In this document: one piece after another, positions 5,900 to 22,405 of the stretch
How the letters are laid out: each line of letters begins with the position of its first letter
Position numbering within the stretch: the first letter of the stretch is position 1
Assembly (NCBI GenBank): GCA_001792305.1
Contig: MGGH01000023.1
Span: 34,347-98,346 of the forward strand
DNA from: Candidatus Woesebacteria bacterium RIFCSPHIGHO2_01_FULL_39_23
GTDB lineage: Bacteria > Patescibacteriota > Microgenomatia > UBA8517
Direction of reading: 5' to 3'
Length of the DNA: 64,000 nucleotides
Made by a program: the position numbers and the translations under genes
The notes under the pieces: model-generated
Databases searched by the model: none
Told to the model about the DNA's origin: nothing
Seen by the model: only the letters and a program-made list of their open reading frames with translations

Positions 5900-5905
5900 G
5901 GATAA

Positions 5906-6160
5906 TTATAATCTAATATTCTTTATATTTGAAACTGCCATCCATGAGGACATTGATCCAAATCCTGATTTGTTAATACTAAATGGTTTTACTTTTTGAG
6001 GATTTTTGAGAAAGACTAGAATGCAGCATTTTTTATCCTTTCGACCACTTTCTATAAGATTCCGGATAAAAAACTTTATTAAGGGCTTTTCAGTTGTATG
6101 TCGAAAATAAACTGGATATTGAGGCCTGTATATTAATTGCTTAAATGGAAAAAGAACATG
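5906..6160 (-). pseudogene. Orphan 3'-terminal fragment paralogous to the ASCH-like gene at 8964..9395, with no start codon
   Basis: The reverse-strand frame is open from the stop at 6163-6161 down to the stop at 5908-5906 without any ATG. It encodes ...KDKKCCILVFLKNPQKVKPFSINKSGFGSMSSWMAVSNIKNIRL*, versus the intact gene's ...KDKKCCILVFLKNPQKVKPFSINKSGFGAMAAWLTVNNINKIKI*. Confidence 0.6.
5964..6040. repeat. Copy 1 of a perfect 77-bp direct repeat (cctgatttgttaatactaaatgg...gcagcattttttatcctt)
   Basis: Identical to 9022..9098 by direct comparison. The flanks show only partial similarity. Confidence 0.9.
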
Positions 6161-6283: not shown

Positions 6284-7270
6284 TTAATTAGTATTTTTGA
6301 ATAAATCGGGGTTAATTTTCCAATCAGGAGTTGCGTAGTTATCTCCCCAAACCCCTTCACTGTCAACAGAGTTGAAGTAAAAAATAGTCTTTAAAAGTGG
6401 GTATTTTTTACTGCTATTTATTGCGTCAAATAACCAATTTTTCTGGAAATCTTGGTTACCTGTTACACCAAACTCCGCTATTATCACAGATTTATCATAA
6501 TCTTTCACCATGTTGTATCTGTCAGCGAAAATATTATCGAAACTTCTAGCTTTTCCATAATTGTCTATGTCCCACTGGGGATATTCGAAAACTGATAAAC
6601 CAATAAGATCGACGTAATTCCCTCCAGGCCAATAATTGTTGGCGTTAGTATGGCCAACCGGTGACCAAACGAAATAATTTTTCGAATCTATTTGTCTGCA
6701 ACGGTTTACAAAATACCGATATGAAGCGATGTAACTTTCACTATCCTCTTTTGCCCAAGGATACCTTCCTGTCACATTTTCCATTTCGTGACCCCAGCGG
6801 ATAAATACAGGATTTAGTGAGTCTTTGAAATCTAAGCAGACAGCATCAGTAGCTTCATCGTAACTTCCTTTTAGAATATCTTCAAATAAGGTACTAGTTT
6901 GATCAACAGAGCCATCAAAAGTAAACGGCTCCACAGTTACCATAGTCCATCTGTTATTTTTACTTGCCTCATTGAAAAAATTATCTAATTCCCCTTTTTC
7001 GTATTCGTTCCATTTAATAAATTCGTGCACGATTGATATTGTATTGACGGAATCGAAATTGCCGTTCGGGTCATAAACACCGAAATTGATTTTTATGTTT
7101 TTCCAGTCTATGTTGCAGTTCCTTTTTAAAAATTCGAACGGTGAATTACAAAGAATAGATTTATAACCCCAGGTAATACCATTTATTGCGTCGGACCCCC
7201 TAGTAATAATAGCGGATATGGGGAATAAAAAAACTAATAAACTAAAAGTAATAAATAAGTATTTTTTCAT
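6284..7270 (-). CDS. Secreted clan GH-A glycoside hydrolase, GH26-like (beta-mannanase/endo-glycanase type)
   Basis: Signal peptide (MKKYLFITFSLLVFLFPISAI). IRWGHEMEN matches the GH26 acid/base region (R..HEMN), and IIAEFGV is a nucleophile-Glu strand. Overlaps the upstream GT2 gene by 4 nt. Confidence 0.55.
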   Translation of the reverse strand: MKKYLFITFSLLVFLFPISAIITRGSDAINGITWGYKSILCNSPFEFLKRNCNIDWKNIKINFGVYDPNGNFDSVNTISIVHEFIKWNEYEKGELDNFFNEASKNNRWTMVTVEPFTFDGSVDQTSTLFEDILKGSYDEATDAVCLDFKDSLNPVFIRWGHEMENVTGRYPWAKEDSESYIASYRYFVNRCRQIDSKNYFVWSPVGHTNANNYWPGGNYVDLIGLSVFEYPQWDIDNYGKARSFDNIFADRYNMVKDYDKSVIIAEFGVTGNQDFQKNWLFDAINSSKKYPLLKTIFYFNSVDSEGVWGDNYATPDWKINPDLFKNTN

Positions 7271-8853
7271 AATCTGGATTTACGACTAAAAGATTTATTT
7301 TCATTAAAGTGATTTTTTATGATCATAAAGATAGAAATTGTGTAAGTAATAATATTTAATATTACAAAGTACAAATATCCAGAAACCATAGGAGAACCTT
7401 TTGCATATAAGGAAATATATGACAAAAAGATAATAACCAGGTAAGGTGTTAACATGCCTATTTTTAAAGGGCGATTACCAATTTCACCCTTTGAAGTTAC
7501 TTTAAAAGAAACGTCTTTTCTTGAAATACATACAATAATTCCAGAAAGAACACCAAGTAGCACCCAAGGCCATCTAATTAGTTGAAAAACAAACGTTTCC
7601 CACGAGATAAATTTTGAATTGGATGGTCTAAGCCATCCCCTATTTTTGATCCAAATTATTATGCTAAGTGTAATAATGGAAAGGATCCATGTGTAAAAAC
7701 TGAAAGCGATGTAGGTCACATTGACCCATGGCTTGTTTGTAACCAAAGCAATTATAGGTAGGCTGTACGCAAAAACTATTGTTGTAGAAAACAGAGGATA
7801 CCATAATTCAGAGAACAGAAATTGCAGTTTAAAGCGCGAAGGTAGATTTTTAAGGTATTTAGGAGTTACTGTCAGCAATATTATAATTAGACTCCTGGTC
7901 CATTGGAATTCTTGAAACATACTATCTGTAAAACTTTCTGCTCCGTCACCGTGGGCAATTGCATCTGTTGCGTGGATTCCACGCCACTTGTTCGCGTTCA
8001 TCATAAGTGTTGTTGTATGGTCTTCAGCCAATTCAGGCCCCAAACCTCCAATTTCTTTTAAAGCTTTTGTGCGCACGGCGTAGTGCGACCCGATGCAAAG
8101 AGGTGCCCAGCCGGCATTATACCCAGACTGTAGGGGTCCGTGCAGGGTGGCTTCAGCATATAGCCTTGCCCTTGCTGCCCAGCTTTTCTTTGCATTTGCG
8201 TCGCAAATGCTTGGAGCAGATACATATCCTACTGCCGGGTCTGCAAACGGTCTTAGCATCTCTTCTAAATAACCGGCTTCCGGTACGTGGTCGGCATCCA
8301 TTTGGATTACGAATTCGTAGCGGTAATAGCCGTAATTATCGTAAAAGTAGGCAAGATTGCCTTCTTTGCATTTTGTTTTTCTTGGCCACTTTGGGCGATG
8401 ATATTCTACAGCCCCCTTTCTGGTTGAAACAAAAACTCCATTTCGCTTGCACCACTGGTAGACTTCTTCTGTCGGGTCTTCGTCTGCAAGCCAGGTATCG
8501 TGTGCGTATTTCTGGGAAAGCATAGCTGAAAGCGTCTTTTTGACAACTTCAAAAGGTTCGGATGGGGCTTTTGTAACAACCATGGCTACCAATAGCCCTT
8601 TGGGTATAGGTAGTTTGGGATTGGGTTTTTTCATTTTGGCCACAAAGAAGAAAAAATATGCAGGCATCATCATATTCCAGGCAATCAAGGTGCTGTTTAA
8701 CACAAATCCCAGTCTTCCTACAACATGGCTTTCGTCCAGCCACCATATCCAAAAAACAGCTGCGAAGATAAGCCACAGTGCAAATAAAACGTTAAAGAAT
8801 ACCTTTTGTCTTTGTGTCATTATATCGACCAGATATGGGATACTAATATTCAT
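7267..8853 (-). CDS. Processive family-2 glycosyltransferase, cellulose-synthase-like (BcsA/Csl-type), integral membrane
   Basis: N-terminal TM helices, then LADEDP (D,D), KEGNLAYF (KAG-like), QMDADH (DxD), GPELAEDH (TED-like), QEFQWTRS (Q..RW-like), and about 6 C-terminal TM helices. Confidence 0.6.
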   Translation of the reverse strand: MNISIPYLVDIMTQRQKVFFNVLFALWLIFAAVFWIWWLDESHVVGRLGFVLNSTLIAWNMMMPAYFFFFVAKMKKPNPKLPIPKGLLVAMVVTKAPSEPFEVVKKTLSAMLSQKYAHDTWLADEDPTEEVYQWCKRNGVFVSTRKGAVEYHRPKWPRKTKCKEGNLAYFYDNYGYYRYEFVIQMDADHVPEAGYLEEMLRPFADPAVGYVSAPSICDANAKKSWAARARLYAEATLHGPLQSGYNAGWAPLCIGSHYAVRTKALKEIGGLGPELAEDHTTTLMMNANKWRGIHATDAIAHGDGAESFTDSMFQEFQWTRSLIIILLTVTPKYLKNLPSRFKLQFLFSELWYPLFSTTIVFAYSLPIIALVTNKPWVNVTYIAFSFYTWILSIITLSIIIWIKNRGWLRPSNSKFISWETFVFQLIRWPWVLLGVLSGIIVCISRKDVSFKVTSKGEIGNRPLKIGMLTPYLVIIFLSYISLYAKGSPMVSGYLYFVILNIITYTISIFMIIKNHFNENKSFSRKSRL

Positions 8854-8963
8854 AGAGAAGCAAGAATTATAGAGTATTTAGGGAAACTAAGTCAATCGTG
8901 ATAAGTTGATGCTTATCGATTATACGGTGCTACGTTTAGAATATATTTAAGACTATGTTTGGA

Positions 8964-9395
8964 TCATATCTTAATTTTGTTGATGTTGTTGACTGTAAGC
9001 CACGCAGCCATTGCGCCGAAGCCTGATTTGTTAATACTAAATGGTTTTACTTTTTGAGGATTTTTGAGAAAGACTAGAATGCAGCATTTTTTATCCTTAA
9101 ATAATTTGTAGTAATAATCAATCTTATTTTTCTCAATTCCGTCTGGTCTGTGGAATTTGTTTAATAATTCTTCTACTCTTCGCGGATTTAATTTATCAAA
9201 TTGTAAAACTTTGGATACCTTCGCTTTTACAACAATAAGTTCCCCGGAGTTTTTGAAATAAACAGTGTCACTTGCCTTTACTTTGTCCCAAGGAGCAGAC
9301 TTGTTCTTAAGCCAGCGAGACTCGATATTTTTTGTACCATTGAGGATTTTGGGAATGAGGCCCCAAGATTTTTTCATTATTGCCAGATGATCCAT
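8964..9395 (-). CDS. ASCH/PUA-like domain protein
   Basis: 143 aa. MKKSWGLIPKILNGTKNIESRW...DTVYF...GELIVVKAKV resembles ASCH-domain proteins. The last ~45 codons contain repeat copy 2. Confidence 0.4.
   Translation of the reverse strand: MDHLAIMKKSWGLIPKILNGTKNIESRWLKNKSAPWDKVKASDTVYFKNSGELIVVKAKVSKVLQFDKLNPRRVEELLNKFHRPDGIEKNKIDYYYKLFKDKKCCILVFLKNPQKVKPFSINKSGFGAMAAWLTVNNINKIKI
9022..9098. repeat. Copy 2 of the perfect 77-bp direct repeat
   Basis: Identical to 5964..6040. Lies inside the 3' end of the ASCH-like CDS. Confidence 0.9.
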
Positions 9396-14765: not shown

Positions 14766-15503
14766 TCAATATTCGATAAATTCTAAAATTTCCCTCGCCA
14801 ATCTTTTCGGATACTTTACTGGAATACTGTGGTTACAGGCAAATGAGATAATTTTCGCGTTTTGGAAATGTTTATAAAGCTCTGTGCCATGAGTTCTGAC
14901 AATTGCCTGATCTTTGGTTCCATAGGCAATTAGGGTTTTATTGATTATGCTCTGTGTTTCTTCTGGCCAATTATGAGCCAAAAGGTCTTTGCAACAGAGT
15001 GCAACCGACTTCGCGTCGCTGTTTTTTAGAAACCCTGGATCCATAGGTATTAGATTTTTGATAACCGTTTTAAGATATTGGTGGTTAGAGTTTAGTATTT
15101 TTTTAATCACACGGTCGACAAAATAAAAGTTGACACCGAGCCAGATTAAAAACTTATAAGAAAGTGGAGACCCTGATTTTGGGTTTCGTAAGGGTACCGA
15201 GATAATGATTAACTTTTCCACTTCTTTTGGGAATCTTATGGTGTATTCCAGGGAGATATAACCGCCAAGCGAATGCCCTACCAAAATAAATGGGGGTTTA
15301 ATATTTATCTTTTTAAGCTGATCTTTAAGATAATTTGGATAGGTCTCAAAATTTAAAGGAACACTGTTGTAATAAGTTCCGTATGGATCTATATCTATTG
15401 CATGACAACTGTATTTATTTTTAGGCAAGGATTGAATTAACTTGTCCCAAAGTTGTTTTGTATAGCCTAAACCGGGAATAAAGACGATTGTTTGTTTTTG
15501 CAT
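14766..15503 (-). CDS. Alpha/beta-hydrolase fold protein
   Basis: Nucleophile elbow ILVGHSLGG. Confidence 0.7.
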   Translation of the reverse strand: MQKQTIVFIPGLGYTKQLWDKLIQSLPKNKYSCHAIDIDPYGTYYNSVPLNFETYPNYLKDQLKKINIKPPFILVGHSLGGYISLEYTIRFPKEVEKLIIISVPLRNPKSGSPLSYKFLIWLGVNFYFVDRVIKKILNSNHQYLKTVIKNLIPMDPGFLKNSDAKSVALCCKDLLAHNWPEETQSIINKTLIAYGTKDQAIVRTHGTELYKHFQNAKIISFACNHSIPVKYPKRLAREILEFIEY

Positions 15504-15506
15504 TAC

Positions 15507-16328
15507 CTAAAATGGTAACAGAAATTTAGAATAGGCGCCGGGATATTCAACTTCTAAACCCCCAAAACTTTTTTTGAAGCGGGAGAAACCGAGCCACGAT
15601 TTTAGAGGGAATCTATCGTCGTAAACACCTTCAAAATCAAAAACCTTGCACTTTAGTTTCTTTGCCAATCTTATCACTTCCCAAGTAACCAAGGTTGGGG
15701 CGAATAGTTTTTTCCCTTCCGGAGTTGCGGCAGCATACATATAGTAGGCGACATAACCTGTTTCAGGCATTAAAATTCCGGCGAGAAGTTTGTTGTCTTT
15801 ATAAGCCAATAAAAGGTGTGAATTTTTTCCAAAAGCGTTGTGTATGGCGTGTATTGATTTGCCGAGTTTTAAAAACTTTCTACTTGGTTGCGCATTTAGC
15901 CAAAGGTCTACGAATCTTTCTATATCTTTTGATTTTTTGACTACTACACCCCTTTTTAGTGCAACTTTTATATTGTATCTGGTTTTATAATGCATTTCTT
16001 TTAGTACCTCTTTTTCCGATTTTGTTAAATCAATGTGAACTGTTTTACTTGGTAAATAAGGAGATTTAGTTAGTTTAAATCCATGCTTTATAAGTGGTTT
16101 ACCCTGAGCGAGGTCGAAGGGTTCTATGACAATTTGAAAGGCTCTATATTTTTTCACAACGCGGTTTATTTGATTAAAGTCGGTTATTTTAGGTCTTTGG
16201 ATTTTGACAAATGATCCGATTACTGGAAGCCTTTTTATAAAGTAATTTACACCACCAACTCTTTCCACGATCCAGCCAATACTTTTCATATATTTTGCAT
16301 ATTCCTTGGTTTGTCGAAGATCAGTCAT
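15507..16328 (-). CDS. FemAB-family peptidoglycan cross-bridge peptidyltransferase-like (GNAT fold)
   Basis: Paralog of 17027..17995: KTRYNIKVALKRGVVVK here versus KTRYNIRLAQKHGVKVIE there. The FemAB-like architecture is common in CPR genomes. Confidence 0.55.
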   Translation of the reverse strand: MTDLRQTKEYAKYMKSIGWIVERVGGVNYFIKRLPVIGSFVKIQRPKITDFNQINRVVKKYRAFQIVIEPFDLAQGKPLIKHGFKLTKSPYLPSKTVHIDLTKSEKEVLKEMHYKTRYNIKVALKRGVVVKKSKDIERFVDLWLNAQPSRKFLKLGKSIHAIHNAFGKNSHLLLAYKDNKLLAGILMPETGYVAYYMYAAATPEGKKLFAPTLVTWEVIRLAKKLKCKVFDFEGVYDDRFPLKSWLGFSRFKKSFGGLEVEYPGAYSKFLLPF

Positions 16329-16345
16329 AATTTAAAAGTCAGCGA

Positions 16346-17023
16346 TTAGTGACTTGTGGTTAGTATTTCTTTGATTATCTCAAAGGTTTCTGGTGAGTTT
16401 ATAATATTCAAGTGGCCTGCAACGTCGATTTTAACGTTCTTCGCCCCTTTGAGGACTAAACTACTATTCGGAATGACAACTTCGTCAAGTCTAGGATAAA
16501 GGTTTGTAAACATTTTATTTACTCTAACCTTTCGGTCAAGATTTTTTATAAGCTTTGAAGAAGGGACAATTTCACCAAGGTTAAATATATTTACATAGCC
16601 TGAATAAGTTCCCTTATAGGGAGAGGAAATGCTAATTACTTTGGAAACGCGGTTTGAATACTTCGAATTTATCAGAAAATATTTAGTTATAACACCACCT
16701 TTGCTATGACTTATTATAAGAGAGTCTTTAATTGCATTTTCGTTAATATAGTTTTCAAGTATTTCCGAGCATTTTTTAATTTTGGCGGTGTTATTTCCTA
16801 ACTTTTTTAGAACATGCACCCTGTATCCAAGACCATTAATAAAATTTCCTATTTTGATTAGGTATGACCAGGTTCCACCAAAACCTTGTACTAAAATGAC
16901 ATTGCCTTCCTTTCCATAAGACCATTTTTCTGGTGGTGTTCGAATAATAAAATTACTAAGTTTTGCAATTGGGTGAGTTAGAATATCCAAAATTATTTCC
17001 AAGGTGGTTTTTAAAATTCTCAT
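16346..17023 (-). CDS. Lipase-like alpha/beta hydrolase (DUF676/PGAP1-like)
   Basis: GxSxG elbow ISHSKGG. About 225 aa. Confidence 0.5.
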   Translation of the reverse strand: MRILKTTLEIILDILTHPIAKLSNFIIRTPPEKWSYGKEGNVILVQGFGGTWSYLIKIGNFINGLGYRVHVLKKLGNNTAKIKKCSEILENYINENAIKDSLIISHSKGGVITKYFLINSKYSNRVSKVISISSPYKGTYSGYVNIFNLGEIVPSSKLIKNLDRKVRVNKMFTNLYPRLDEVVIPNSSLVLKGAKNVKIDVAGHLNIINSPETFEIIKEILTTSH

Positions 17024-17026
17024 AGT

Positions 17027-17995
17027 TTATAAAGAAGTCTTAGTAAGACTAAACTTAGCTTTAGTTCTTAAAACTAGCCAACGGATTTTTTCAGCAATTC
17101 TATAAAGATGATAAAGGGGGTGTGCTACTAAATCCCAACTTCCTAAAAACTCAATAACCTGTGGGTTATATCCCTCTTTAAATTTTGTAAATCCCTTTCC
17201 AGGCTCCCTTCCCCAAAGGTCAAAAATCTTATAACCCCGGCGCTTGCCAAATCTAATTGCCTCCCACATCATAAGGTTATTTGTCATGACATTTTTGTAT
17301 TTGTCGGAACTGGCACCGTATGGGTAGTAAAGAATTTTGTCGTAGGTAAACAAAATCCAGGTTGTGATAATTTCACTTTTATATTTAGCAACCAGAAGAT
17401 GAGCTAGGGGTGATCGGTGTTCGGTGATCGGTGTTCGGTGAAGGTGCTTCCACATAAGGCGGTGATATTCTGGTGTGTGAGCATAAAAACCTTGTCTTTT
17501 AGCTGTCTCAAAAGTCAGTTCCAAATATTTTTCAAATGCTTTATTTGAGTTATCCTCAATCACTTTTACTCCGTGTTTTTGGGCAAGACGGATGTTGTAG
17601 CGGGTTTTACCGGAAAAACTTTTCAGGAGTTCGTCTTCTGGTTTTGTTAAGTCGATTCGGAAAGTTGTAGGAGTAAATAAAGTTTTACCAGGGACAGCGT
17701 TGTTTTTTTTGAATAAATGAATTATTGAATTATTGACCTCACTTTTTATAATATTTGGTTCCAATTTTATAAATATTAGATTTTTTTCTTTAGCAATCTT
17801 TTTTAGAAAAACAAGCATTTCTTGTGTTGGTTTTGGCCCTTTGATAAACATGCCAATTTTCCATGGCGTAAAAGGGATTTTATGAAGAGTAATTACGCCA
17901 TATTTGGTTTCCAAAACCTCATTTCCCCATTCTTGTCGAAACTGCGCCCACTCGTGAGATTGTAAGGGGTGTTTTGGCTCTCTTGTTTTTACCAT
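17027..17995 (-). CDS. FemAB-family peptidyltransferase-like protein
   Basis: Homologous to 15507..16328. The N-terminus is MVKTREPKHPLQSHEWAQFRQEWG. Confidence 0.55.
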   Translation of the reverse strand: MVKTREPKHPLQSHEWAQFRQEWGNEVLETKYGVITLHKIPFTPWKIGMFIKGPKPTQEMLVFLKKIAKEKNLIFIKLEPNIIKSEVNNSIIHLFKKNNAVPGKTLFTPTTFRIDLTKPEDELLKSFSGKTRYNIRLAQKHGVKVIEDNSNKAFEKYLELTFETAKRQGFYAHTPEYHRLMWKHLHRTPITEHRSPLAHLLVAKYKSEIITTWILFTYDKILYYPYGASSDKYKNVMTNNLMMWEAIRFGKRRGYKIFDLWGREPGKGFTKFKEGYNPQVIEFLGSWDLVAHPLYHLYRIAEKIRWLVLRTKAKFSLTKTSL

Positions 17996-18409
17996 TTAAA
18001 CAACCTCGATATATTTTGGATAATTAAAAGTTACTTTAAAGTGGTCGAAGAATCCGTTATTTCCTAAAACGTCGAAGGAGTTTTGTGGTATTTCTTTTGA
18101 AAAAATAACGTTGGTTTCATACTCCTTTCCCGCAACTCCAAATAAAATTTTAAGTTGGTAACCTTTTATTTCCTTTCCTCCAATACCTCTTATTTTCCTT
18201 TTTTTACCTGTTGAGAGCTTAATTCCCAGATATGAAGTTACCAGTTCTTCAAATAGGCAATAGTCTGCTCCTGAATCTACTATTGCTTGATATCCCACAA
18301 TTCTCTTTTTGTTAAGTAGAATTACAGGAATCACTGGCCTGTAGATTATTTTTTTTCTGGGTGTGGCAGGTGAGGGAGTAACTTCAAATTCTTGATATTG
18401 ATATTTCAT
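17996..18409 (-). CDS. Retropepsin-like (clan AA) aspartic protease, single-domain
   Basis: Catalytic triad motif IVDSGADY plus flap motif RGIGGKEIKGY. 137 aa. Its stop abuts the FemAB start, and its start overlaps the upstream small ORF. Confidence 0.75.
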   Translation of the reverse strand: MKYQYQEFEVTPSPATPRKKIIYRPVIPVILLNKKRIVGYQAIVDSGADYCLFEELVTSYLGIKLSTGKKRKIRGIGGKEIKGYQLKILFGVAGKEYETNVIFSKEIPQNSFDVLGNNGFFDHFKVTFNYPKYIEVV

Positions 18410-18633
18410 TATGCATGAAGATTGTACCCAACATATGGCAATGATTCTTTGGGTATCTTCATTAAATAGGGTATTTTTGTGCCGGATTTTGTGGCTTTTT
18501 CTGCTGCCTCTTTTAGCGTTTTCCCCACACCAGCGACAGTAACAAGATCTTCTTTAAATGCGACCCATTTTCCGGGGTATTTCCTCTGAACCTCAACTCT
18601 ACTGATCGGTTTCATATTTTTATTATACACCAA
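18409..18633 (-). CDS. Small protein partner of the retropepsin. The likely true start is the ATG at 18615, giving 68 aa (the track starts at a TTG). It resembles the ~70-aa DUF5678-like family recalled from memory; unverified.
   Basis: MKPISRVEVQRKYPGKWVAFKEDLVTVAGVGKTLKEAAEKATKSGTKIPYLMKIP, i.e. the pattern GKWVA..D..V.AG.TL.EA.EKA.K.G. It overlaps the protease gene by 1 nt. Confidence 0.55.
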   Translation of the reverse strand: MVYNKNMKPISRVEVQRKYPGKWVAFKEDLVTVAGVGKTLKEAAEKATKSGTKIPYLMKIPKESLPYVGYNLHA

Positions 18634-18721
18634 CTAAAACTCCACACTTTCCCCACCCCCTTCGAAACTCCGCCCACTCGTGAGATTGAAGTGGATGAGT
18701 TGATGATTCGGTTGATTCCAT
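18632..18721 (-). pseudogene. Duplicated 5' fragment of a FemAB-family gene: start codon plus 31 codons, then a stop
   Basis: Reverse strand from the ATG at 18721-18719 encodes MESTESSTHPLQSHEWAEFRRGWGKCGVLVGV*. The intact gene at 17995 encodes MVKTREPKHPLQSHEWAQFRQEWGNEVL. DNA identity is 26/27 between 18662-18688 and 17936-17962. Confidence 0.65.
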
Positions 18722-18798
18722 GTTTTTATGGTATATGCTAATCATACAATGAAAGTAATTGTACATAAATTTATTTCCGACTTTGGTACAATCTGAGT

Positions 18799-19497
18799 AT
18801 GTCAGGTGAACCGACAGGCGAGGTAAGACCTGAAAATAGCGATGCTTCGATTAAAGTACGGGTAGTTTCTCAAAATGAACTATTTAGAATGAGCAATAGA
18901 GCACTGGATCTGGTTGAAGTAGATATCGAGAAAAACGTATATTGGCTAGAAACAGATGGGAAAACGCCAATTTTGAATAAGGGAGCTGGGCCCTGCTTAA
19001 TAATGTTTGTCAAAAATATTGGTGATGGCACTATAATTTCAGGACACTTTTCGGGTAGAATTGCTGACCATCAACTTAGCCAAGAAATATTAAAAACGCA
19101 TCTTAAAAAAGTACAAAAAGAGATTCCTAACGAGGGAGACGAAATATTAATTCATAGCCAGCAAGAACTTGATAATCTTGCGATTTCAGATAAAGAAATG
19201 TACAGGTCTTATTTGGCTTTGCTTGATAGAATTAAAGAGTTTTGTTCTGAGGCAGGAGAAGCCAGGATTGAAATATATCTTTTTGGTCAAAATTATTGGA
19301 GGTTGGTTTCGGAACCGGACGAAATTGGAGGATTAACGGAAAATATAATTCAAAGGCAAAATGTGGTGACTGATTTGGAGAGGTTAGGTGTTAAACCCCC
19401 AAGAATATTTGATTACAGGGATCTGAAGAGATTGGAGGGAACAGACGACACATTGTTTCTGCCCGAAGAAGATGTAATTTTACACGCTACTGGATAA
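18799..19497 (+). CDS. Hypothetical protein
   Basis: 232 aa with no recognisable motifs. Confidence 0.4.
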   Translation: MSGEPTGEVRPENSDASIKVRVVSQNELFRMSNRALDLVEVDIEKNVYWLETDGKTPILNKGAGPCLIMFVKNIGDGTIISGHFSGRIADHQLSQEILKTHLKKVQKEIPNEGDEILIHSQQELDNLAISDKEMYRSYLALLDRIKEFCSEAGEARIEIYLFGQNYWRLVSEPDEIGGLTENIIQRQNVVTDLERLGVKPPRIFDYRDLKRLEGTDDTLFLPEEDVILHATG

Positions 19498-19505
19498 GAC
19501 TATTT

Positions 19506-21351
19506 TTATTCAAAATTGTACTCTGTTATTCTTTTTTTAATGTAGCCGTTATCAGTTTCGATTAACTCCTCCGGAATATCAGTCAAAAACCGGCTGGGGG
19601 GATTTGAGGACGTTTGGCCGAAATAAAGACGGCGGGAGGCGTAAGTTAGATAAAGAATTTCTTTTGCGCGAGTGATACCTACATATGCGAGCCGCCTTTC
19701 TTCTTCCATCCCGTCTTGTTCCCATAAAGATTGTGCATGTGGGAAAAGTCCCTCTTCCATACCGATAATAAATACAACTTTAAATTCCAGTCCTTTTGAA
19801 GCATGTAATGTCATTAGGGTAACAGCATCTTTATTTTTTTCGCCATTTAATGGATCATCTGGCAGATATTCTTGTTGAACAAGTGCGACGTTTTCCAAAA
19901 AGTCGTGGATTTTGGGAAACTCGCTAGCAACGGACCTGAGCTCTTTGATGTTTTCAAGGCGCGCATAGTCTTCGGTTGATTCAGGATTAAATTTTTCTAA
20001 ATATCTTGTGATACTCACCACTTCGTCCATCAGCTCAAGGGTGGTTTTGGCGTTTAAAGGTTTAATTTTTACAGAGTATTTTTTAAACTCATCAAATCTT
20101 CTTTTACCGATTTTTTCTACCCGCTTGGTTGAAACATGATCTTTGGGGTTAACAAGCAGTCGTAAATAGGAAAGTACGTCCTTTATTTCGGCCCGCTCGT
20201 AAAATTTCACACCACCAACCAGTACGTAAGGAATTCCTGCGTGCAAAAAAGCTTCTTCCAAAACTCGTGATTGGGCATTAGTCCTGTATAAAATTGCTAT
20301 GTCTTTATAGCTTAAATTATTTTTTAAAATTTCATTGATTATATATGTCGCTTCTTCCGACCCGCTTCTGGCAGAATAGATTTTTATTTTTGGTCCGCCC
20401 TTTTTCTTTGTCCAAAGTTTCAAGACCGGGTGAGTTGTATTTTTTGAAATAACACTGTTTGCCGCAAGCAGAATGACTTCTGAAGACCTGTAATTTTCCT
20501 CAAGATTGACAATTTTGATACCTGGAAAGTCATTAATTAAATTTGCAATGTTTCGGAAATCTGCGCCTCTCCATGAATATATTGATTGGCTTGCATCGCC
20601 TACGGCAGTTATATTCTTGTTTTTTGATACAAGCAATTTGGTGAGCAAGTATTGTATTTTGTTTGTATCCTGCCATTCATCCACTAAAACATAAGTGAGC
20701 CTATTTTCCCATTTATTTAAAGTAGGCGGATCATTTTTTAGAAGATCGACTGTGTGCAGTAGAAGGTCATTAAAATCCAGTGCGTCGGCTTTTTTGAGAG
20801 CTTTTTCGTATTCAAGATAAATTTTGAAAGTTTTTTCCTGCATTGGTGTTTTTGCGATCTCCGCATACATAAGGGGGGTCAACATTTGGTTCTTCGCCGA
20901 ATCTATGGAGGAAAGAACCGATCCGGGACTCACGGATTTATCCGAAATATTTAAGACTTTTATAATGTCTTTTATTAAGTCCTTTTGATCTTGTGTGTCA
21001 TATATGATGAAGTTTCTGTTTATTCCTATTTTTTCCCCGTCTATGCGAAGCAGCCGTGCGCAAAAAGAGTGGAAAGTTCCCGTAAAAAATGGAAAGGTGC
21101 CGGTAATTTTTTCTACTCTTTCTTTCATTTCCCCCGCAGCTTTGTTAGTGAAAGTTAGAAGTAACAAGTTTTCTGGTCTTGCCCATTTTTGCGAAAGCAC
21201 ATATGCGGCTCTTTGTGTTAGTACCCTTGTCTTGCCGCTTCCAGCACCAGCGAGGACCAGTAGTGGTCCACTGCCGTAACTTACAGCTTCTTGTTGTGCA
21301 GTATTGAGTTGATCTAAAATAGATTTCGTTATACGTTTTTGATTGTAACAT
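19506..21351 (-). CDS. UvrD/PcrA/Rep-family SF1 helicase. The N-terminal ~50 codons, including Walker A, are reachable only through a 1-nt frameshift in a T5/A5 run at 21336-21340.
   Basis: The track ORF 19506..21200 starts at LLLLTFTNKAAGEM, which is helicase motif Ia. The same frame continues upstream through GPLLVLAGAGSGKTRVLTQRAAYV to a stop at 21360-21362 with no start codon. An ATG at 21351-21349 lies in the +1 frame (MLQSK...). Deleting one A joins them as MLQSKRITKSILDQLNTAQQEAVSYGSGPLLVLAGAGSGKT. Confidence 0.7.
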
Positions 21352-22405
21352 GGCGAGATCTAAATTTTTCTTTACAAAATTCAAGCGAAAATTTTTGAGC
21401 CACTTGTGGTTGGCAAGGATTATAATTATTTTGGGGGTGTTGTGTGTGGTGTTCCTGGGTGTTGTCGGGATTGCCTCGGTTGTTAAGAAGACCCCGCTTT
21501 CAGACTATATCGATATTGTGACTGCTTTTGTGTTTTCACCAAAAGACAAAGTGAAAAATTTTGACGGTAGGACAAATATTTTGATTCTTGGCAAGGGTGG
21601 TGAAGGCCACGAGGCACCAGATCTTACCGACACCTTAGTTTTAGCCTCAGTCGATTTTGATAAAAATGCAGTTTCGTTTCTATCTATTCCTAGAGACATT
21701 TGGATAGAGTCTTTGAGGATTAAGTTGAATAGTGCTTATTATTGGGGAAACGAAAGACAAGAAAATGGAGGACTGATTCTTGCTAAATCATCTGTCGAGG
21801 AAATCATTGGTTCACCAGTGCACTACGCCGTGGTTATTGACTTTGTTTTATTTAAGGATTTGATTGACGAGGTGGGTGGAATAGAAGTGGACGTGGAGGA
21901 TTCGTTTGTGGATCATCGATATCCCATTCCTGGGCGGGAAAATGATGAGTGTGACGATGATCCTAAGTTTTTGTGTAGATATGAAACAATCGAGTTTAGG
22001 AAAGGCTTGCAATTTATGGATGGTGATACTGCTCTAAAATTTGTCCGTTCAAGAAATGCCGAAGGGGACGAGGGGACGGATATTGCAAGATCCAAGAGGC
22101 AGCAGAAGGTGATTTTGTCTTTAAAAAACGAAATTCTAAGCTGGAACATTATTTTCTCATTCAATAAGTTGTCGAACATAAAAGAATTGGTGGGATCAAG
22201 GACGGAAACAGATATGGATACAATTGCGTCGGTAATTGTTGCAAGGAAGATTTTTGACGCGAGAAATAACTTTAGGACTTTAAGCATTCCCGAAGAATTC
22301 TTGGAGGTAGCGCCAAAGTCTCCCGACTTCGACAATCTTTACGTATTCATACCGAGTGCTGGTAATTGGATGGAACTTCAAAGGTGGATAAAAAGCAATA
22401 TCTGA
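21350..22405 (+). CDS. LytR-CpsA-Psr (LCP) family cell-envelope polymer transferase
   Basis: N-terminal TM helix, then DTLVLASVD...SIPRD, the LCP signature. Confidence 0.75.
   Translation: MARSKFFFTKFKRKFLSHLWLARIIIILGVLCVVFLGVVGIASVVKKTPLSDYIDIVTAFVFSPKDKVKNFDGRTNILILGKGGEGHEAPDLTDTLVLASVDFDKNAVSFLSIPRDIWIESLRIKLNSAYYWGNERQENGGLILAKSSVEEIIGSPVHYAVVIDFVLFKDLIDEVGGIEVDVEDSFVDHRYPIPGRENDECDDDPKFLCRYETIEFRKGLQFMDGDTALKFVRSRNAEGDEGTDIARSKRQQKVILSLKNEILSWNIIFSFNKLSNIKELVGSRTETDMDTIASVIVARKIFDARNNFRTLSIPEEFLEVAPKSPDFDNLYVFIPSAGNWMELQRWIKSNI

What the first reader, a model, noticed from the sequence alone, without database searches (positions are those of the whole stretch)
17912..18721. The protease cassette is bracketed by a duplicated 5' end of the FemAB-family gene
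Forward 18662-18688 matches 17936-17962 at 26 of 27 positions. Indel-containing homology extends to about 60 bp on either side (roughly 17912-17962 versus 18631-18688). On the reverse strand the upstream copy carries its own ATG (18721-18719) and encodes MESTESSTHPLQSHEWAEFRRGWGKCGVLVGV*. The intact FemAB-like gene starts MVKTREPKHPLQSHEWAQFRQEWGNEVL. The fragment's stop sits 8 nt before the small gene's ATG, and the protease stop abuts the intact gene's ATG with no intergenic space. The roughly 640-bp two-gene unit therefore sits exactly between an orphan 5' fragment and the intact gene. This is the mirror image of the 3'-end duplication at the glycan cassette.
Basis: seen in the sequence. 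Interest (0 to 1): 0.55.

Follow-up and report, generated by a model that had tools for sequence, protein, structure and literature searches.

The report
Orphan gene start left by cassette insertion
A small two-gene module sits directly in front of a cell-wall (FemAB-family) gene in a Woesebacteria (candidate phyla radiation) genome and has pushed an older copy of that gene's start upstream; similar stranded starts with other cargo in related genomes mark this gene start as a recurrent recombination hot spot.

Summary
A 32-codon orphan copy of the 5' end of the FemAB-family gene (18721-18623, minus strand) lies 726 bp upstream of the intact gene's start (17995). Between them is a DUF5678 gene plus a retropepsin-like protease gene.

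It is an insertion or displacement scar, not the remnant of a third paralog. Eighty related genomes show uvrD followed by fem322, with no cassette, no fragment and no third paralog. In the close relative L171 the gap is 4 nt.

The two copies are 78% alike. Each has a closer match in another genome than in its neighbour. The intact gene is mosaic, with a breakpoint at nt 141-153. So the repeat is not a transposon target-site duplication. It joins two diverged alleles.

The cassette abuts a fem322 ATG (intact gene or orphan) in six other lineages, and its similarities are incongruent with those of fem322. Four other loci carry orphan fem322 starts, with HicBA, DUF2283/DUF4258, a nucleotidyltransferase or the same cassette as cargo. 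No integrase, transposase or terminal inverted repeat was found.

Best reading: recombination anchored in fem322, of the homology-facilitated illegitimate or single-crossover type, at a uvrD-fem322 hot spot. This mirrors C-terminal displacement in Rhs and T6SS loci. Cassette function is unknown.

The parts
18623..18721 (-). Orphan 5' fragment of the FemAB-family gene fem322. It has an ATG, an 8-codon N-terminal extension and the conserved HPLQSHEWAEFR..WG motif. Homology is lost after codon 25-28. The stop TAA is at 18625-18623.
   Evidence: Sequence and translation. Alignment to the intact 5' end with a shuffle test. tblastn of the fragment hits the fem322 start in nearly all orthologous loci. 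The 48-nt core matches L001 and L002 at 42/48, against 38/48 to its own neighbour.
17911..17995 (-). The 5' end of the intact fem322, which is the second repeat copy. It is of a different allele type from the orphan (AQFRQE rather than AEFRRG).
   Evidence: Its closest match is L171: 41/48 in the core and 88% over nt 25-96.
18622..18627 (-). TATAAT box lying 6 nt upstream of the DUF5678 ATG. It is the inferred promoter of a leaderless cassette transcript. It marks the left boundary of the horizontally shared unit and contains the orphan's stop codon.
   Evidence: GTATAAT-N6-ATG is conserved in the window, L086, L087, L091, L173, L174 and L175; L082 has a 7-nt spacer. Of 56 distinct cassette upstream regions, 35 have a -10-like hexamer ending 5-8 nt before the ATG, against 4.9% at random positions. 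Nucleotide similarity to L086/L087 starts here. Promoter function is inferred, not shown.
18409..18615 (-). DUF5678 gene (68 aa), the first gene of the cassette.
   Evidence: Pfam PF18929, E 1.3e-7, 31.7 bits against a cutoff of 23.2. It is 85% identical to the L086/L087 copies. The AlphaFold model (pLDDT 77) has an alpha-beta-beta-alpha-beta order with no significant PDB match.
17996..18409 (-). Retropepsin-like aspartic protease gene (137 aa), the second gene of the cassette. Its start overlaps the DUF5678 stop as TAATG. Its stop TAA abuts the fem322 ATG. A GAGG Shine-Dalgarno sequence for fem322 lies in its last codons.
   Evidence: Weak Pfam hits to Asp_protease_2 and RVP, both below the curated cutoffs. 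D45-S46-G47 is invariant in 13 homologs. A PDB profile search hits FIV protease and DDI1. The AlphaFold model (pLDDT 77) matches HIV-2, HIV-1 and EIAV proteases at TM 0.72-0.74, and the Rickettsia retropepsin-like protease.
17027..17995 (-). Intact FemAB-family gene fem322 (322 aa), a mosaic of alleles.
   Evidence: Pfam FemAB E 2e-26. There are 5517 homologs, the best non-self match at 73-77% identity. Mosaic pattern: nt 25-96 are closest to L171 (88%); nt 97-150 are closest to L002 (78%, against 59% to L001 and L171); nt 151-400 are closest to L001 (79%).
17843..17855 (-). Inferred recombination crossover inside fem322, at gene nt 141-153.
   Evidence: Informative sites for window versus L001 versus L002: 21 of the first 27 favour L002, and 151-152 of the remaining 217-218 favour L001. 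Fisher p = 2e-6. None of 300 permutations reached this value.
18722..18798 (.). A 77-nt divergent intergenic region between the orphan ATG and the hyp232 ATG. It has no residual homology to the uvrD 3' end.
   Evidence: local scores 13-16, against shuffles of about 15.5.
18799..19497 (+). hyp232, an uncharacterised accessory gene lying between uvrD and the orphan. It is absent from all related loci, so it is a further insertion in the same hot spot.
   Evidence: No tblastn hit in any of the fetched loci searched. No Pfam, NCBIfam, PADLOC or PHROGs family. Only 57 distant relatives among 1.8 billion representative proteins.
19506..21200 (-). UvrD/PcrA-type helicase gene, the conserved left flank of the hot spot.
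   Evidence: tblastn shows uvrD directly upstream of fem322 in most of 79 loci. The median distance from the end of the uvrD match to the His codon is 174 nt.

Best explanation
**What it is.** The orphan is the displaced start of fem322. The gap between uvrD and fem322 is a gene-gain hot spot in Woesebacteria.

**How the structure arose (inferred).** DNA from a related lineage arrived carrying the DUF5678-protease cassette already abutting its own fem322 start. It recombined with the resident chromosome, using fem322 as the homologous anchor.
- The right crossover lies inside fem322, at about nt 141-153.
- The left joint fell inside the resident fem322 5' end, after codon 25-28.
- The left joint was either an illegitimate joint (homology-facilitated illegitimate recombination) or a single crossover with a circular or fragment-bearing donor (Campbell-like).
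- The result is two non-identical copies of the gene start that bracket the cargo. One of them heads the working gene.

**Which copy is which.** The protease stop abuts a fem ATG in seven lineages. This suggests that the downstream copy travelled with the cassette and the upstream orphan is the resident's old start. This assignment is tentative.

**How it probably works now (inferred).**
- The cassette is transcribed from its own -10 box as a leaderless mRNA.
- The protease gene is coupled to DUF5678 through the TAATG overlap.
- fem322 is translated as the third gene of the unit, through TAA|ATG coupling and a GAGG Shine-Dalgarno sequence embedded in the protease's last codons.

**Loss.** Recombination between the two copies would delete the cassette and restore a single fem322.

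**Shown versus inferred.** Shown: the anatomy, the absence from relatives, the mosaic gene, the recurrence, and the lack of mobility genes. Inferred: the recombination pathway, the direction of transfer, and the expression scheme.
For: 1. **Relatives lack it.** Eighty related loci have uvrD then fem322 without cassette, fragment or third paralog. L171/L172 have a 4-nt uvrD-fem gap.
2. **The two copies are diverged alleles.**
   - The orphan core matches L001 and L002 at 42/48.
   - The intact copy matches L171 at 41/48.
   - The two copies match each other at 38/48.
   - In the N-terminal extension the orphan matches L001 at 14/24, against 9/24 for the intact copy.
3. **fem322 is mosaic.** The breakpoint is at nt 141-153, with Fisher p = 2e-6 and 0 of 300 permutations reaching it. 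Segment identities switch between L171, L002 and L001.
4. **The cassette moves horizontally.**
   - DUF5678 is 85% and the protease 68-71% identical to L086/L087.
   - The fem322 genes of L086/L087 are only 51-56% identical to the window's.
   - L082 has a closer fem322 (60-64%) but a more distant cassette (67% and 58%).
   - Nucleotide similarity to L086/L087 runs from the -10 box to the protease stop and drops on both sides.
5. **The abutment recurs.** The protease stop abuts a fem ATG in the window, L086, L087/88, L091, L173 and L174, and abuts an orphan in L175/176.
6. **Other orphan fem322 starts exist at the same site.**
   - L087/88: the cargo is the same cassette.
   - L175/176: the cargo is a 121-aa gene plus DUF2283 and DUF4258. 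The orphan is 89% identical to the L091 fem322 but unlike its own neighbour.
   - L082: the cargo is HicB-HicA.
   - L024: the cargo is an ANT(2'')-like nucleotidyltransferase fused to the first 8 fem codons.
   - The L024 and L082 repeats were matched by 0 of 200 shuffles.
7. **No mobility genes.** No integrase or transposase is present among the hot-spot cargo scanned with Pfam. No terminal inverted repeats or Rfam elements are present.
8. **Literature precedent.**
   - Single-homology substrates give either illegitimate joints or, more often, single-crossover duplications of 109-950 bp of the homologous segment (PMC3240628).
   - Homology-facilitated illegitimate recombination was proposed for orphan-leaving displacement at T6SS and Rhs loci (PMC5361080).
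   - Hot spots between core genes turn over by flanking recombination (PMC5635113, abstract listed).
Against: - **Breakpoint clustering.** Four of the five orphans end at the same codon, the His of HPLQ. Random illegitimate joints would not predict this, although selection against damaging uvrD could narrow the range.
- **Sharp cassette boundaries.** The boundaries shared with L086/L087 are sharp to within a few nucleotides on both sides. Plain flank-mediated exchange would be expected to carry flanking sequence along.
- **Native-looking gene start.** The fem322 start abutting the cassette in the window is of the window's own clade type, with 8 codons before HPLQ. It is not the 19-codon type of L086/L087. 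An intermediate donor or later overwriting must therefore be assumed.
- **Crossover beyond the orphan.** The mosaic crossover (nt 141-153) lies beyond the end of the orphan (nt 75-85). A minimal Campbell model does not predict this without a later deletion.
- **Small comparisons.** Allele comparisons rest on 48-72 nt. L001's own 5' end has been rearranged.
- **Donor unknown.** No donor and no cassette-free sister strain of this species was available.
- **Competence unknown.** DNA uptake and RecA-dependent recombination in Woesebacteria are assumed, not shown.
Confidence: 0.68

Rival explanations
1. Site-specific integration. The conserved start of fem322 is an attachment site. Integrase-less mini-elements, each carrying a replacement gene start, are inserted there by a recombinase supplied in trans. 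The recombinase could be a host Xer-type enzyme or one from a helper element, as with IMEX or cis-mobilizable elements.
For: - Four different cargos use the same gene start.
- Four of five orphan breakpoints fall at the His codon that opens the HPLQ motif.
- The boundaries of the shared cassette are sharp.
- The protease stop abuts a fem ATG in seven lineages.
- No orphan uvrD 3' ends were found, so only the fem side is active.
Against: - No recombinase gene was found in any of the roughly 90 loci examined.
- The window's breakpoint (codon 25-28) differs from the others.
- Repeat lengths and extents differ: -25 to +26 in L024, +1 to about +85 in the window.
- The repeat copies are 78-81% identical, and each resembles alleles of other genomes. 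No common identical core was seen.
- The mosaic structure continues well inside the gene, as expected for general recombination.
Confidence: 0.14
2. An old in-place duplication. A single ancestral event duplicated the fem322 start around the cassette within this lineage, for example by replication slippage or unequal crossing-over. The two copies have since simply diverged to 78%. The cassette and orphan are inherited vertically, with losses elsewhere.
For: - Both copies share the rare S-H-E codons (TCTCACGAG), seen in only one of 80 other orthologs.
- Both have an 8-codon extension typical of the window's clade.
- The cassette lies in the same gap in eight lineages.
Against: - A three-taxon calculation on the counts puts about 1.5-3 changes on the orphan branch and about 7-8.5 on the functional copy. 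This is the reverse of what is expected for a pseudogene beside a constrained gene.
- The intact 5' end matches L171 better than it matches the orphan.
- Cassette and fem322 similarities are incongruent.
- The closest relatives L001 and L171/172 lack the cassette.
- The L176 orphan is 89% identical to the fem322 of a different lineage and unlike its own neighbour.
Confidence: 0.1
3. A deletion remnant. The fragment is what is left of a third full-length FemAB paralog that once stood upstream of the cassette.
For: The genome has two FemAB-family genes in this operon (fem322 and fem273), so gene-family expansion is plausible.
Against: - None of 80 genomes, and none of the metagenome loci, has a third paralog at this site.
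- The fragment is orthologous in type to fem322: 87.5% nucleotide identity to the L001 and L002 fem322 cores.
- It is in register with the fem322 ATG.
Confidence: 0.03
4. Transposition with target-site duplication, or an assembly artefact.
For: Direct repeats bracket a compact unit. The source is a metagenome-assembled genome.
Against: - There is no transposase and there are no terminal inverted repeats.
- The repeats are 55-85 nt long, contain indels and are 78% identical.
- The protease-fem junction is reproduced in an independent assembly, L081, whose fem322 is 97% identical.
- The cassette proteins occur on 25-26 contigs.
- The same architecture is seen in unrelated samples.
Confidence: 0.03

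Closest known systems
Displacement that leaves orphan gene ends at Rhs, CDI and T6SS effector-immunity loci ('C-terminal displacement'; proposed to occur by homology-facilitated illegitimate recombination; PMC5361080 and the references it cites)
   Same: - Incoming DNA is anchored by the conserved part of a resident gene.
- The new variable part plus cargo is added next to the conserved gene.
- The old gene end is pushed aside and survives as an orphan.
- Alleles within one genome are closer to alleles of other strains than to each other.
- Successive events build arrays, as in L082 and L175/176 here.
   Different: - Here the 5' end (N-terminus) is displaced, and it is pushed upstream.
- The anchor is a housekeeping cell-wall gene, not a polymorphic toxin.
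- The cargo is unrelated small modules rather than matching toxin and immunity pairs.
- The organisms are uncultivated candidate phyla radiation bacteria.
Homology-facilitated illegitimate recombination and single-crossover (Campbell-type) insertion-duplication in transformation or conjugation (de Vries and Wackernagel 2002 and Prudhomme et al. 2002, as cited in PMC5361080; PMC3240628)
   Same: - One homologous anchor is used and no dedicated recombinase is needed.
- The outcome is either an illegitimate joint or a duplication of part of the homologous segment flanking the insert. Duplications of 109-950 bp were found in PMC3240628.
- The mosaic crossover inside the anchor gene matches this pattern.
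   Different: - Those are laboratory events with identical homology. Here the arms are 20-40% diverged.
- The joints cluster at one codon in four lineages.
- Microhomology at the joint could not be established.
Genomic islands and integrative elements that duplicate the end of their target gene (tRNA or tmRNA 3' ends, or ends of protein genes), including integrase-less derivatives such as CIMEs and IMEX (from my own knowledge)
   Same: - The element sits at a gene end.
- It is bracketed by a partial copy of that end.
- The gene remains intact.
- The same target is reused by different cargos.
   Different: - No integrase is present anywhere.
- The repeats are not identical cores.
- Breakpoints and repeat lengths vary.
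- The cargo is only 0.55-1 kb.
Integration hot spots between core genes that turn over by recombination in the flanking core genes (PMC5635113)
   Same: The uvrD-fem322 interval is empty in most genomes. It holds varied accessory genes in about 17 of 79, including TA-like modules, and no mobility genes.
   Different: The hot-spot model predicts clean replacement without scars. Here only the fem322 side carries partial duplications.
Type II toxin-antitoxin and candidate defence two-gene modules
   Same: - A small first gene overlaps a larger second gene.
- The module has its own promoter and probably a leaderless transcript.
- Its distribution across unrelated contexts is patchy.
- It sits beside HicAB and DUF2283/DUF4258 modules.
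- There is a weak PADLOC hit to candidate system PDC-M08B (E 0.004).
   Different: - It belongs to no known toxin or antitoxin family.
- The second gene is a retropepsin-like protease.
- No literature on DUF5678 function was found.
- Toxicity is untested.

Membership tests
FemAB family (PF02388), for the intact gene and the orphan | Significant match to the FemAB and Acetyltransf_6 profiles over the catalytic region | tested here: met
   Intact gene: FemAB E 2.2e-26 (93 bits, cutoff 24) and Acetyltransf_6 E 4e-11. The orphan has no Pfam hit because it is only 32 codons long.
FemAB family (PF02388), for the intact gene and the orphan | The orphan corresponds to the N-terminal HPLQxxxWxxFRxxWG motif of the fem322 orthogroup, in register with the start codon | tested here: met
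   The motif is present in all 81 orthologs aligned (with I, V or M in place of L in a few). The orphan carries it after an 8-codon extension, as do L001 and L171.
DUF5678 (PF18929) | Score above the Pfam gathering threshold | tested here: met
   31.7 bits against a cutoff of 23.2, E 1.3e-7, covering the full profile 1-49.
Retropepsin-like aspartic proteases (clan AA: RVP, Asp_protease_2, DDI1) | Sequence match above the curated family thresholds | tested here: not met
   Asp_protease_2 scores 19.5 bits against a cutoff of 24.3. RVP scores 18.3 against 20.7. The PDB profile search gives E 0.003-0.009 to FIV protease and DDI1.
Retropepsin-like aspartic proteases (clan AA: RVP, Asp_protease_2, DDI1) | Catalytic Asp-Ser/Thr-Gly triad and the retropepsin half-barrel fold | tested here: met
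   D45-S46-G47 is invariant in 13 homologs. The AlphaFold model (pLDDT 77, pTM 0.72) matches HIV-2, HIV-1 and EIAV proteases at target TM-score 0.72-0.75 and rmsd about 3 A, and matches Rickettsia APRc. Activity and dimerisation are not testable here.
Transposable element with target-site duplication | Transposase gene, terminal inverted repeats, and short identical direct repeats of fixed length | tested here: not met
   No transposase domain. No inverted repeats pair the two ends. The repeats are 55-85 nt, 78% identical, contain indels, and differ in extent between lineages.
Integrase-mediated island (attL/attR around the element) | A tyrosine or serine recombinase in or next to the element | tested here: not met
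   None in the window region. None among the hot-spot cargo scanned with Pfam, or in the precomputed Pfam annotations of the metagenome loci. A recombinase acting in trans cannot be excluded.
Integrase-mediated island (attL/attR around the element) | An identical core sequence at both junctions, at a fixed position in the target | tested here: inconclusive
   Four breakpoints coincide at the His codon, but the window's differs. The longest identical runs are 18 nt (window), 14 nt (L024) and 7-8 nt (L082, L087). No common core is evident.
Homology-facilitated illegitimate or single-crossover recombination product | A crossover inside a homologous anchor gene, visible as mosaic ancestry | tested here: met
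   Breakpoint at fem322 nt 141-153, p = 2e-6, 0 of 300 permutations. Further ancestry switches occur along the gene.
Homology-facilitated illegitimate or single-crossover recombination product | The bracketing copies derive from different genomes (donor and recipient alleles) | tested here: met
   - Orphan: 42/48 to L001 and L002.
- Intact copy: 41/48 to L171.
- The two copies to each other: 38/48.
- L176 orphan: 50/56 to the L091 fem322, and only local score 30 to its own neighbour.
- L087 orphan: closer to the L091 fem322 (score 42) than to its own (32).
Homology-facilitated illegitimate or single-crossover recombination product | Microhomology of a few bases at the illegitimate joint | tested here: inconclusive
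   A possible AAAG overlap exists between the fem sequence GGGGAAA and the cassette-upstream sequence AAAGTT seen in L087 and L091. Without donor and recipient sequences the joint cannot be placed more precisely than codon 25-28.
Type II toxin-antitoxin module | Membership of a known toxin or antitoxin family, or demonstrated toxicity and neutralisation | tested here: not met
   No TA family in Pfam, NCBIfam or PADLOC; there is only a weak hit to PDC-M08B at E 0.004. The DUF5678 fold has no significant PDB match. Toxicity is not testable with these tools.

The most novel reading that the evidence does not exclude
The start of fem322 is a dedicated docking site for a class of integrase-less mini-cassettes in candidate phyla radiation bacteria.
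- Each cassette travels with a replacement gene start.
- After insertion it is bracketed by two copies of the target's 5' end, and these serve as the two homology arms for invading any naive fem322.
- The structure would therefore be a self-propagating, precisely excisable element.
- It would use only host recombination and would hitch its own expression to an important cell-wall gene.

The features that point beyond accidental recombination scars are the clustering of breakpoints at one codon, the sharp cassette boundaries, and the stop|ATG abutment in seven lineages.
Probability: 0.15. Interest if true: 0.75.

Novelty: new variant of a known kind. Interest (0 to 1): 0.55.

Why it matters
**Gene gain in uncultivated bacteria.**
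- Candidate phyla radiation bacteria are uncultivated, and how they gain genes is known only from sequence footprints.
- This locus gives a clear, repeated footprint. Small accessory modules are added at the start of a conserved peptidoglycan-bridge gene by recombination between diverged genomes.
- The additions need no integrase or transposase, and they leave a trail of stranded gene starts.
- This is the upstream mirror of the displacement process known from Rhs and T6SS toxin loci, now seen at a housekeeping gene.

**Practical consequences.**
- Short orphan reading frames next to accessory cassettes are useful markers of such events.
- They also mislead start-codon annotation. L001's fem322 is called from an internal GTG (289 aa), although the HPLQ motif is encoded upstream with no canonical start codon.
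- The inserted cassette has probably become the promoter and translation-coupling partner of fem322. This could make the cassette hard to lose.
- The DUF5678 plus retropepsin-like protease pair is widespread. It has no assigned function.

Tried and rejected
- **First metagenome scan.** The scan with the single protease sequence found nothing. The alignment-based scan worked.
- **Orphan remnants in L086, L082 and L091.** I suspected remnants directly upstream of the cassette in these loci. Local alignment against shuffles did not support this (scores 13-25, against shuffle maxima of 27-40). L082 does have an orphan, but it lies further downstream, next to HicBA.
- **hyp232 versus the L082 239-aa gene.** The two sit in the same relative position but are not homologous (BLASTP E 1.9).
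- **uvrD remnant upstream of the orphan.** None was found.
- **Orphan uvrD 3' ends in the hot-spot gaps.** None was found, apart from a borderline score of 34 in L046.
- **A simple donor/recipient reading.** I first read the intact gene as L002-like at its 5' end and L001-like elsewhere. This had to be relaxed once L171 was added, because the gene is a multi-way mosaic.
- **A coding error.** One comparison used a wrong L001 offset and was ignored. The values are the ones used.
- **Function searches.** PHROGs, NCBIfam and PADLOC gave nothing useful for the cassette or for hyp232. A literature search for DUF5678 found no functional study. A search combining 'retropepsin-like' with 'toxin-antitoxin' found no paper. 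The DUF5678 fold search gave no significant match.
- **Other searches.** Rfam found no RNA family in 15000-22000. The sigma-70 scan found no full promoter on the minus strand. Exact look-up showed that the orphan ORF is not called as a gene in the protein collection.

Full report
**1. The observation**

All relevant genes lie on the minus strand.
- uvrD-type helicase: 21200-19506.
- hyp232, on the opposite strand: 18799-19497.
- A 32-codon ORF: 18721-18623.
- DUF5678 gene: 18615-18409.
- A 137-aa protease gene: 18409-17996.
- FemAB-family gene of 322 aa, here called fem322: 17995-17027.
- A lipase-like gene, a second FemAB-family gene (fem273), a hydrolase gene and an alkylation-repair gene follow.

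- The core matches at 26 of 27 positions.
- There is an ungapped 55-nt repeat at 78% identity with spacing 726.
- The gapped alignment covers 57-59 nt and scores 55. Shuffles gave 16 +/- 2.3, with a maximum of 30 in 2000.
- It is the second-largest direct repeat in the window.

The short ORF reads MESTESSTHPLQSHEWAEFRRGWGKCGVLVGV*. Fem322 starts MVKTREPKHPLQSHEWAQFRQEWGNEVL. Both have 8 codons before HPLQ.

The orphan has a 3-nt insertion but no frameshift. It loses homology after codon 25-28. It ends at a TAA that lies inside a TATAAT box, 7 nt before the DUF5678 ATG. The DUF5678 stop overlaps the protease start as TAATG. The protease stop abuts the fem322 ATG.

**2. What the genes are**
- **Fem322** is a clear FemAB-family protein. 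It has thousands of homologs in Woesebacteria and other Microgenomates.
- **The genome** is Candidatus Woesebacteria RIFCSPLOWO2_01_FULL_39_21.
- **The small gene** passes the DUF5678 threshold.
- **The protease** falls below the Pfam thresholds.
  - It has an invariant Asp-Ser-Gly.
  - Its model matches retroviral and Rickettsia retropepsins at TM about 0.74.
- **DUF5678** has a small alpha/beta fold with no significant structural match.
- **The pair** is a strictly linked two-gene module.
  - It occurs in many unrelated contexts.
  - In 35 of 56 distinct copies a -10-like box ends 5-8 nt before the ATG, against 4.9% at random positions.
  - This suggests its own promoter and a leaderless transcript.
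- **Function** is unknown. A toxin-antitoxin-like or defence-like role is only a guess.

**3. Related genomes**

Eighty orthologous loci from distinct species show a conserved order of lytR(-), uvrD, fem322, fem273. None has the cassette, hyp232, an orphan of this kind upstream of the cassette position, or a third FemAB paralog.

The median distance from the end of the uvrD match to the His codon of fem322 is 174 nt. About 17 of 79 loci hold 0.5-3.5 kb of varied cargo there.
- The cargo includes methyltransferases, a transglutaminase-like protein, sugar kinases, an ABC transporter and HicB.
- No integrase or transposase is among it.

In the window's own clade:
- L171/L172 has the uvrD stop 4 nt from the fem322 ATG.
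- L001 has three inserted genes. The last of them ends 16 nt before the His codon, leaving fem322 without a canonical start.

The deletion-remnant reading is therefore rejected. The interval is a gene-gain hot spot.

**4. The two copies are different alleles**

| Comparison | Core (48 nt) | N-terminal extension (24 nt) |
|---|---|---|
| Orphan vs L001 | 42 | 14 |
| Orphan vs L002 | 42 | 7 |
| Orphan vs L171 | 35 | 15 |
| Orphan vs intact copy | 38 | 12 |
| Intact copy vs L171 | 41 | 14 |
| Intact copy vs L001 | 35 | 9 |

On a simple tree the orphan has changed less than the functional copy. This is the reverse of what an in-place duplication followed by decay predicts.

The intact gene is mosaic.
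- Of the first 27 informative sites, 21 favour L002 over L001. Of the remaining 217-218 sites, 151-152 favour L001.
- Fisher p = 2e-6, the breakpoint is at nt 141-153, and 0 of 300 permutations reach this value.
- With L171 added, nt 25-96 are closest to L171 (88%).
- Nt 97-150 are closest to L002 (78%, against 59% to L001 and L171).
- Nt 151-400 are closest to L001 (79%).

Fem322 has therefore been repeatedly recombined between lineages, and the repeat joins two such alleles.

**5. The cassette elsewhere**

Close relatives of the cassette lie in the same gap in seven other lineages.
- The protease stop abuts the ATG of an intact fem322 in L086, L087/88, L091 and L174, and of a possibly disrupted fem322 in L173.
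- In L175/176 it abuts an orphan fem322 start.
- In L082 four genes intervene.

Cassette and fem322 similarities are incongruent.

| Compared with the window | DUF5678 | Protease | fem322 |
|---|---|---|---|
| L086/L087 | 85% | 68-71% | 51-56% |
| L082 | 67% | 58% | 60-64% |

Nucleotide similarity to L086/L087 is 70-90%. It begins at the -10 box and ends at the protease stop. The cassette has therefore moved between lineages.

**6. More orphans**
- **L087/88.** An orphan (..FNKAAGH|LMLS*) lies upstream of the cassette. It is closer to the L091 fem322 than to its own.
- **L175/176.**
  - The cassette is followed by an orphan (MIKKVTEREKEAFNKMAGH|LMLS*).
  - Next come three reverse-strand genes, including DUF2283 and DUF4258.
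  - Last comes an intact fem322 with a different start.
  - The orphan is 50/56 identical to the L091 fem322.
  - It shares its terminal lesion with the L087 orphan.
- **L082.** An orphan lies between an inositol-phosphatase gene and HicB-HicA-fem322.
- **L024.** An ANT(2'')-like nucleotidyltransferase gene begins with the first 8 fem322 codons plus about 25 nt of its leader. The intact fem322 overlaps the end of that gene.

Four of the five breakpoints fall at the His codon where inter-lineage homology begins. No orphan uvrD 3' ends were found.

**7. Mechanism**

The pattern has these features:
- a conserved anchor gene;
- cargo added next to it;
- the old gene end stranded;
- bracketing copies that derive from different genomes;
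- mosaic ancestry in the anchor;
- no recombinase.

This pattern matches recombination anchored on one side by homology.
- In the laboratory such substrates give illegitimate joints or, more often, single-crossover duplications of part of the homologous segment (PMC3240628).
- The same logic was proposed for orphan arrays at T6SS and Rhs loci (PMC5361080).
- Hot spots between core genes are a general feature of bacterial genomes (PMC5635113).

I therefore read the window as an 'N-terminal displacement'. The cassette and an attached fem322 start were joined to the resident gene by a crossover near nt 141-153. The other fem322 start was left upstream.

Which copy is resident is only tentatively assigned. 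The specific pathway, whether illegitimate joint or single crossover, is not resolved.

The clustering of breakpoints and the sharp cassette boundaries are not fully explained. They keep a site-specific alternative alive at about 0.14.

**8. Present function (inferred)**
- The -10 box drives a leaderless DUF5678-protease-fem322 transcript.
- Fem322 is translationally coupled through TAA|ATG, with a GAGG eight bases upstream inside the protease's conserved C-terminal codons.
- The orphan ORF may be translated if there is read-through from upstream.
- Recombination between the two copies would remove the cassette cleanly.

**9. Verdict**

The finding is real and the insertion reading is supported. 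The kind of process is known, but this form of it appears not to have been described. Its distinguishing features are:
- a gene start, not a gene end, is displaced;
- the anchor is a housekeeping gene;
- the cargo is small modules;
- the same site is reused across candidate phyla radiation lineages.

Interest is moderate.

Noticed in passing
window 5905-6040 and 8963-9098 (cassette 6284-8853): A second bracketed cassette in the same window. The 3' end of the 143-aa gene 8964-9395(-) is repeated as an orphan at 5905-6040 (136 nt, 83%). The orphan translates to ..KDKKCCILVFLKNPQKVKPFSINKSGFGSMSSWMAVSNIKNIRL*. Between the two copies lie a GT2/GT21-like glycosyltransferase (528 aa) and a GH26-like gene (328 aa). 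A NUDIX gene follows. This is the same architecture at a gene 3' end and suggests the process is general in this genome.
   Followed up: partly
L001 5976-6080: In the closest sequenced relative, an inserted ABC-transporter gene ends 16 nt before the His codon of fem322. The codon at the position of the fem322 ATG is AAG, and no ATG, GTG or TTG precedes the conserved HPLQ motif. The gene is annotated from an internal GTG (289 aa), which omits the motif. It may be N-terminally disabled or may start unconventionally.
   Followed up: partly
L082 7398-8013; L001 3793-4104; L175 3413-4328: The uvrD-fem322 gap collects toxin-antitoxin-type modules. L082 has HicB-HicA. L001 has a closely similar HicB-like gene. 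L175/176 have DUF2283 and DUF4258.
   Followed up: partly
window 18799-19497 (+): hyp232 has no hit in Pfam, NCBIfam, PADLOC or PHROGs. It has only 57 distant relatives (24-45% identity, most 200-290 aa) among 1.8 billion representative proteins. Copies at 90% identity or more form a single 8-member cluster, with NCBI records from two Woesebacteria assemblies.
   Followed up: partly
window 17409-17436: An exact 14-nt tandem duplication (GGTGATCGGTGTTC x2) lies inside fem322 and encodes HRTPITEHRSP. Many orthologs carry a similar repeated peptide (HQSPITNHQSPIA), so the internal repeat is old.
   Followed up: no
L173 4336-5554: The fem322 copy abutting the cassette in L173 matches the window's protein only to residue 276, and no gene was called there. 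It may be disrupted.
   Followed up: no
window 16346-17023 (-): The lipase-like gene between the two FemAB-family genes is present only in the window's clade (L001, L031, L171/172). It is far more diverged (38-58%) than its neighbours (72-76%). In L171 it appears split.
   Followed up: no
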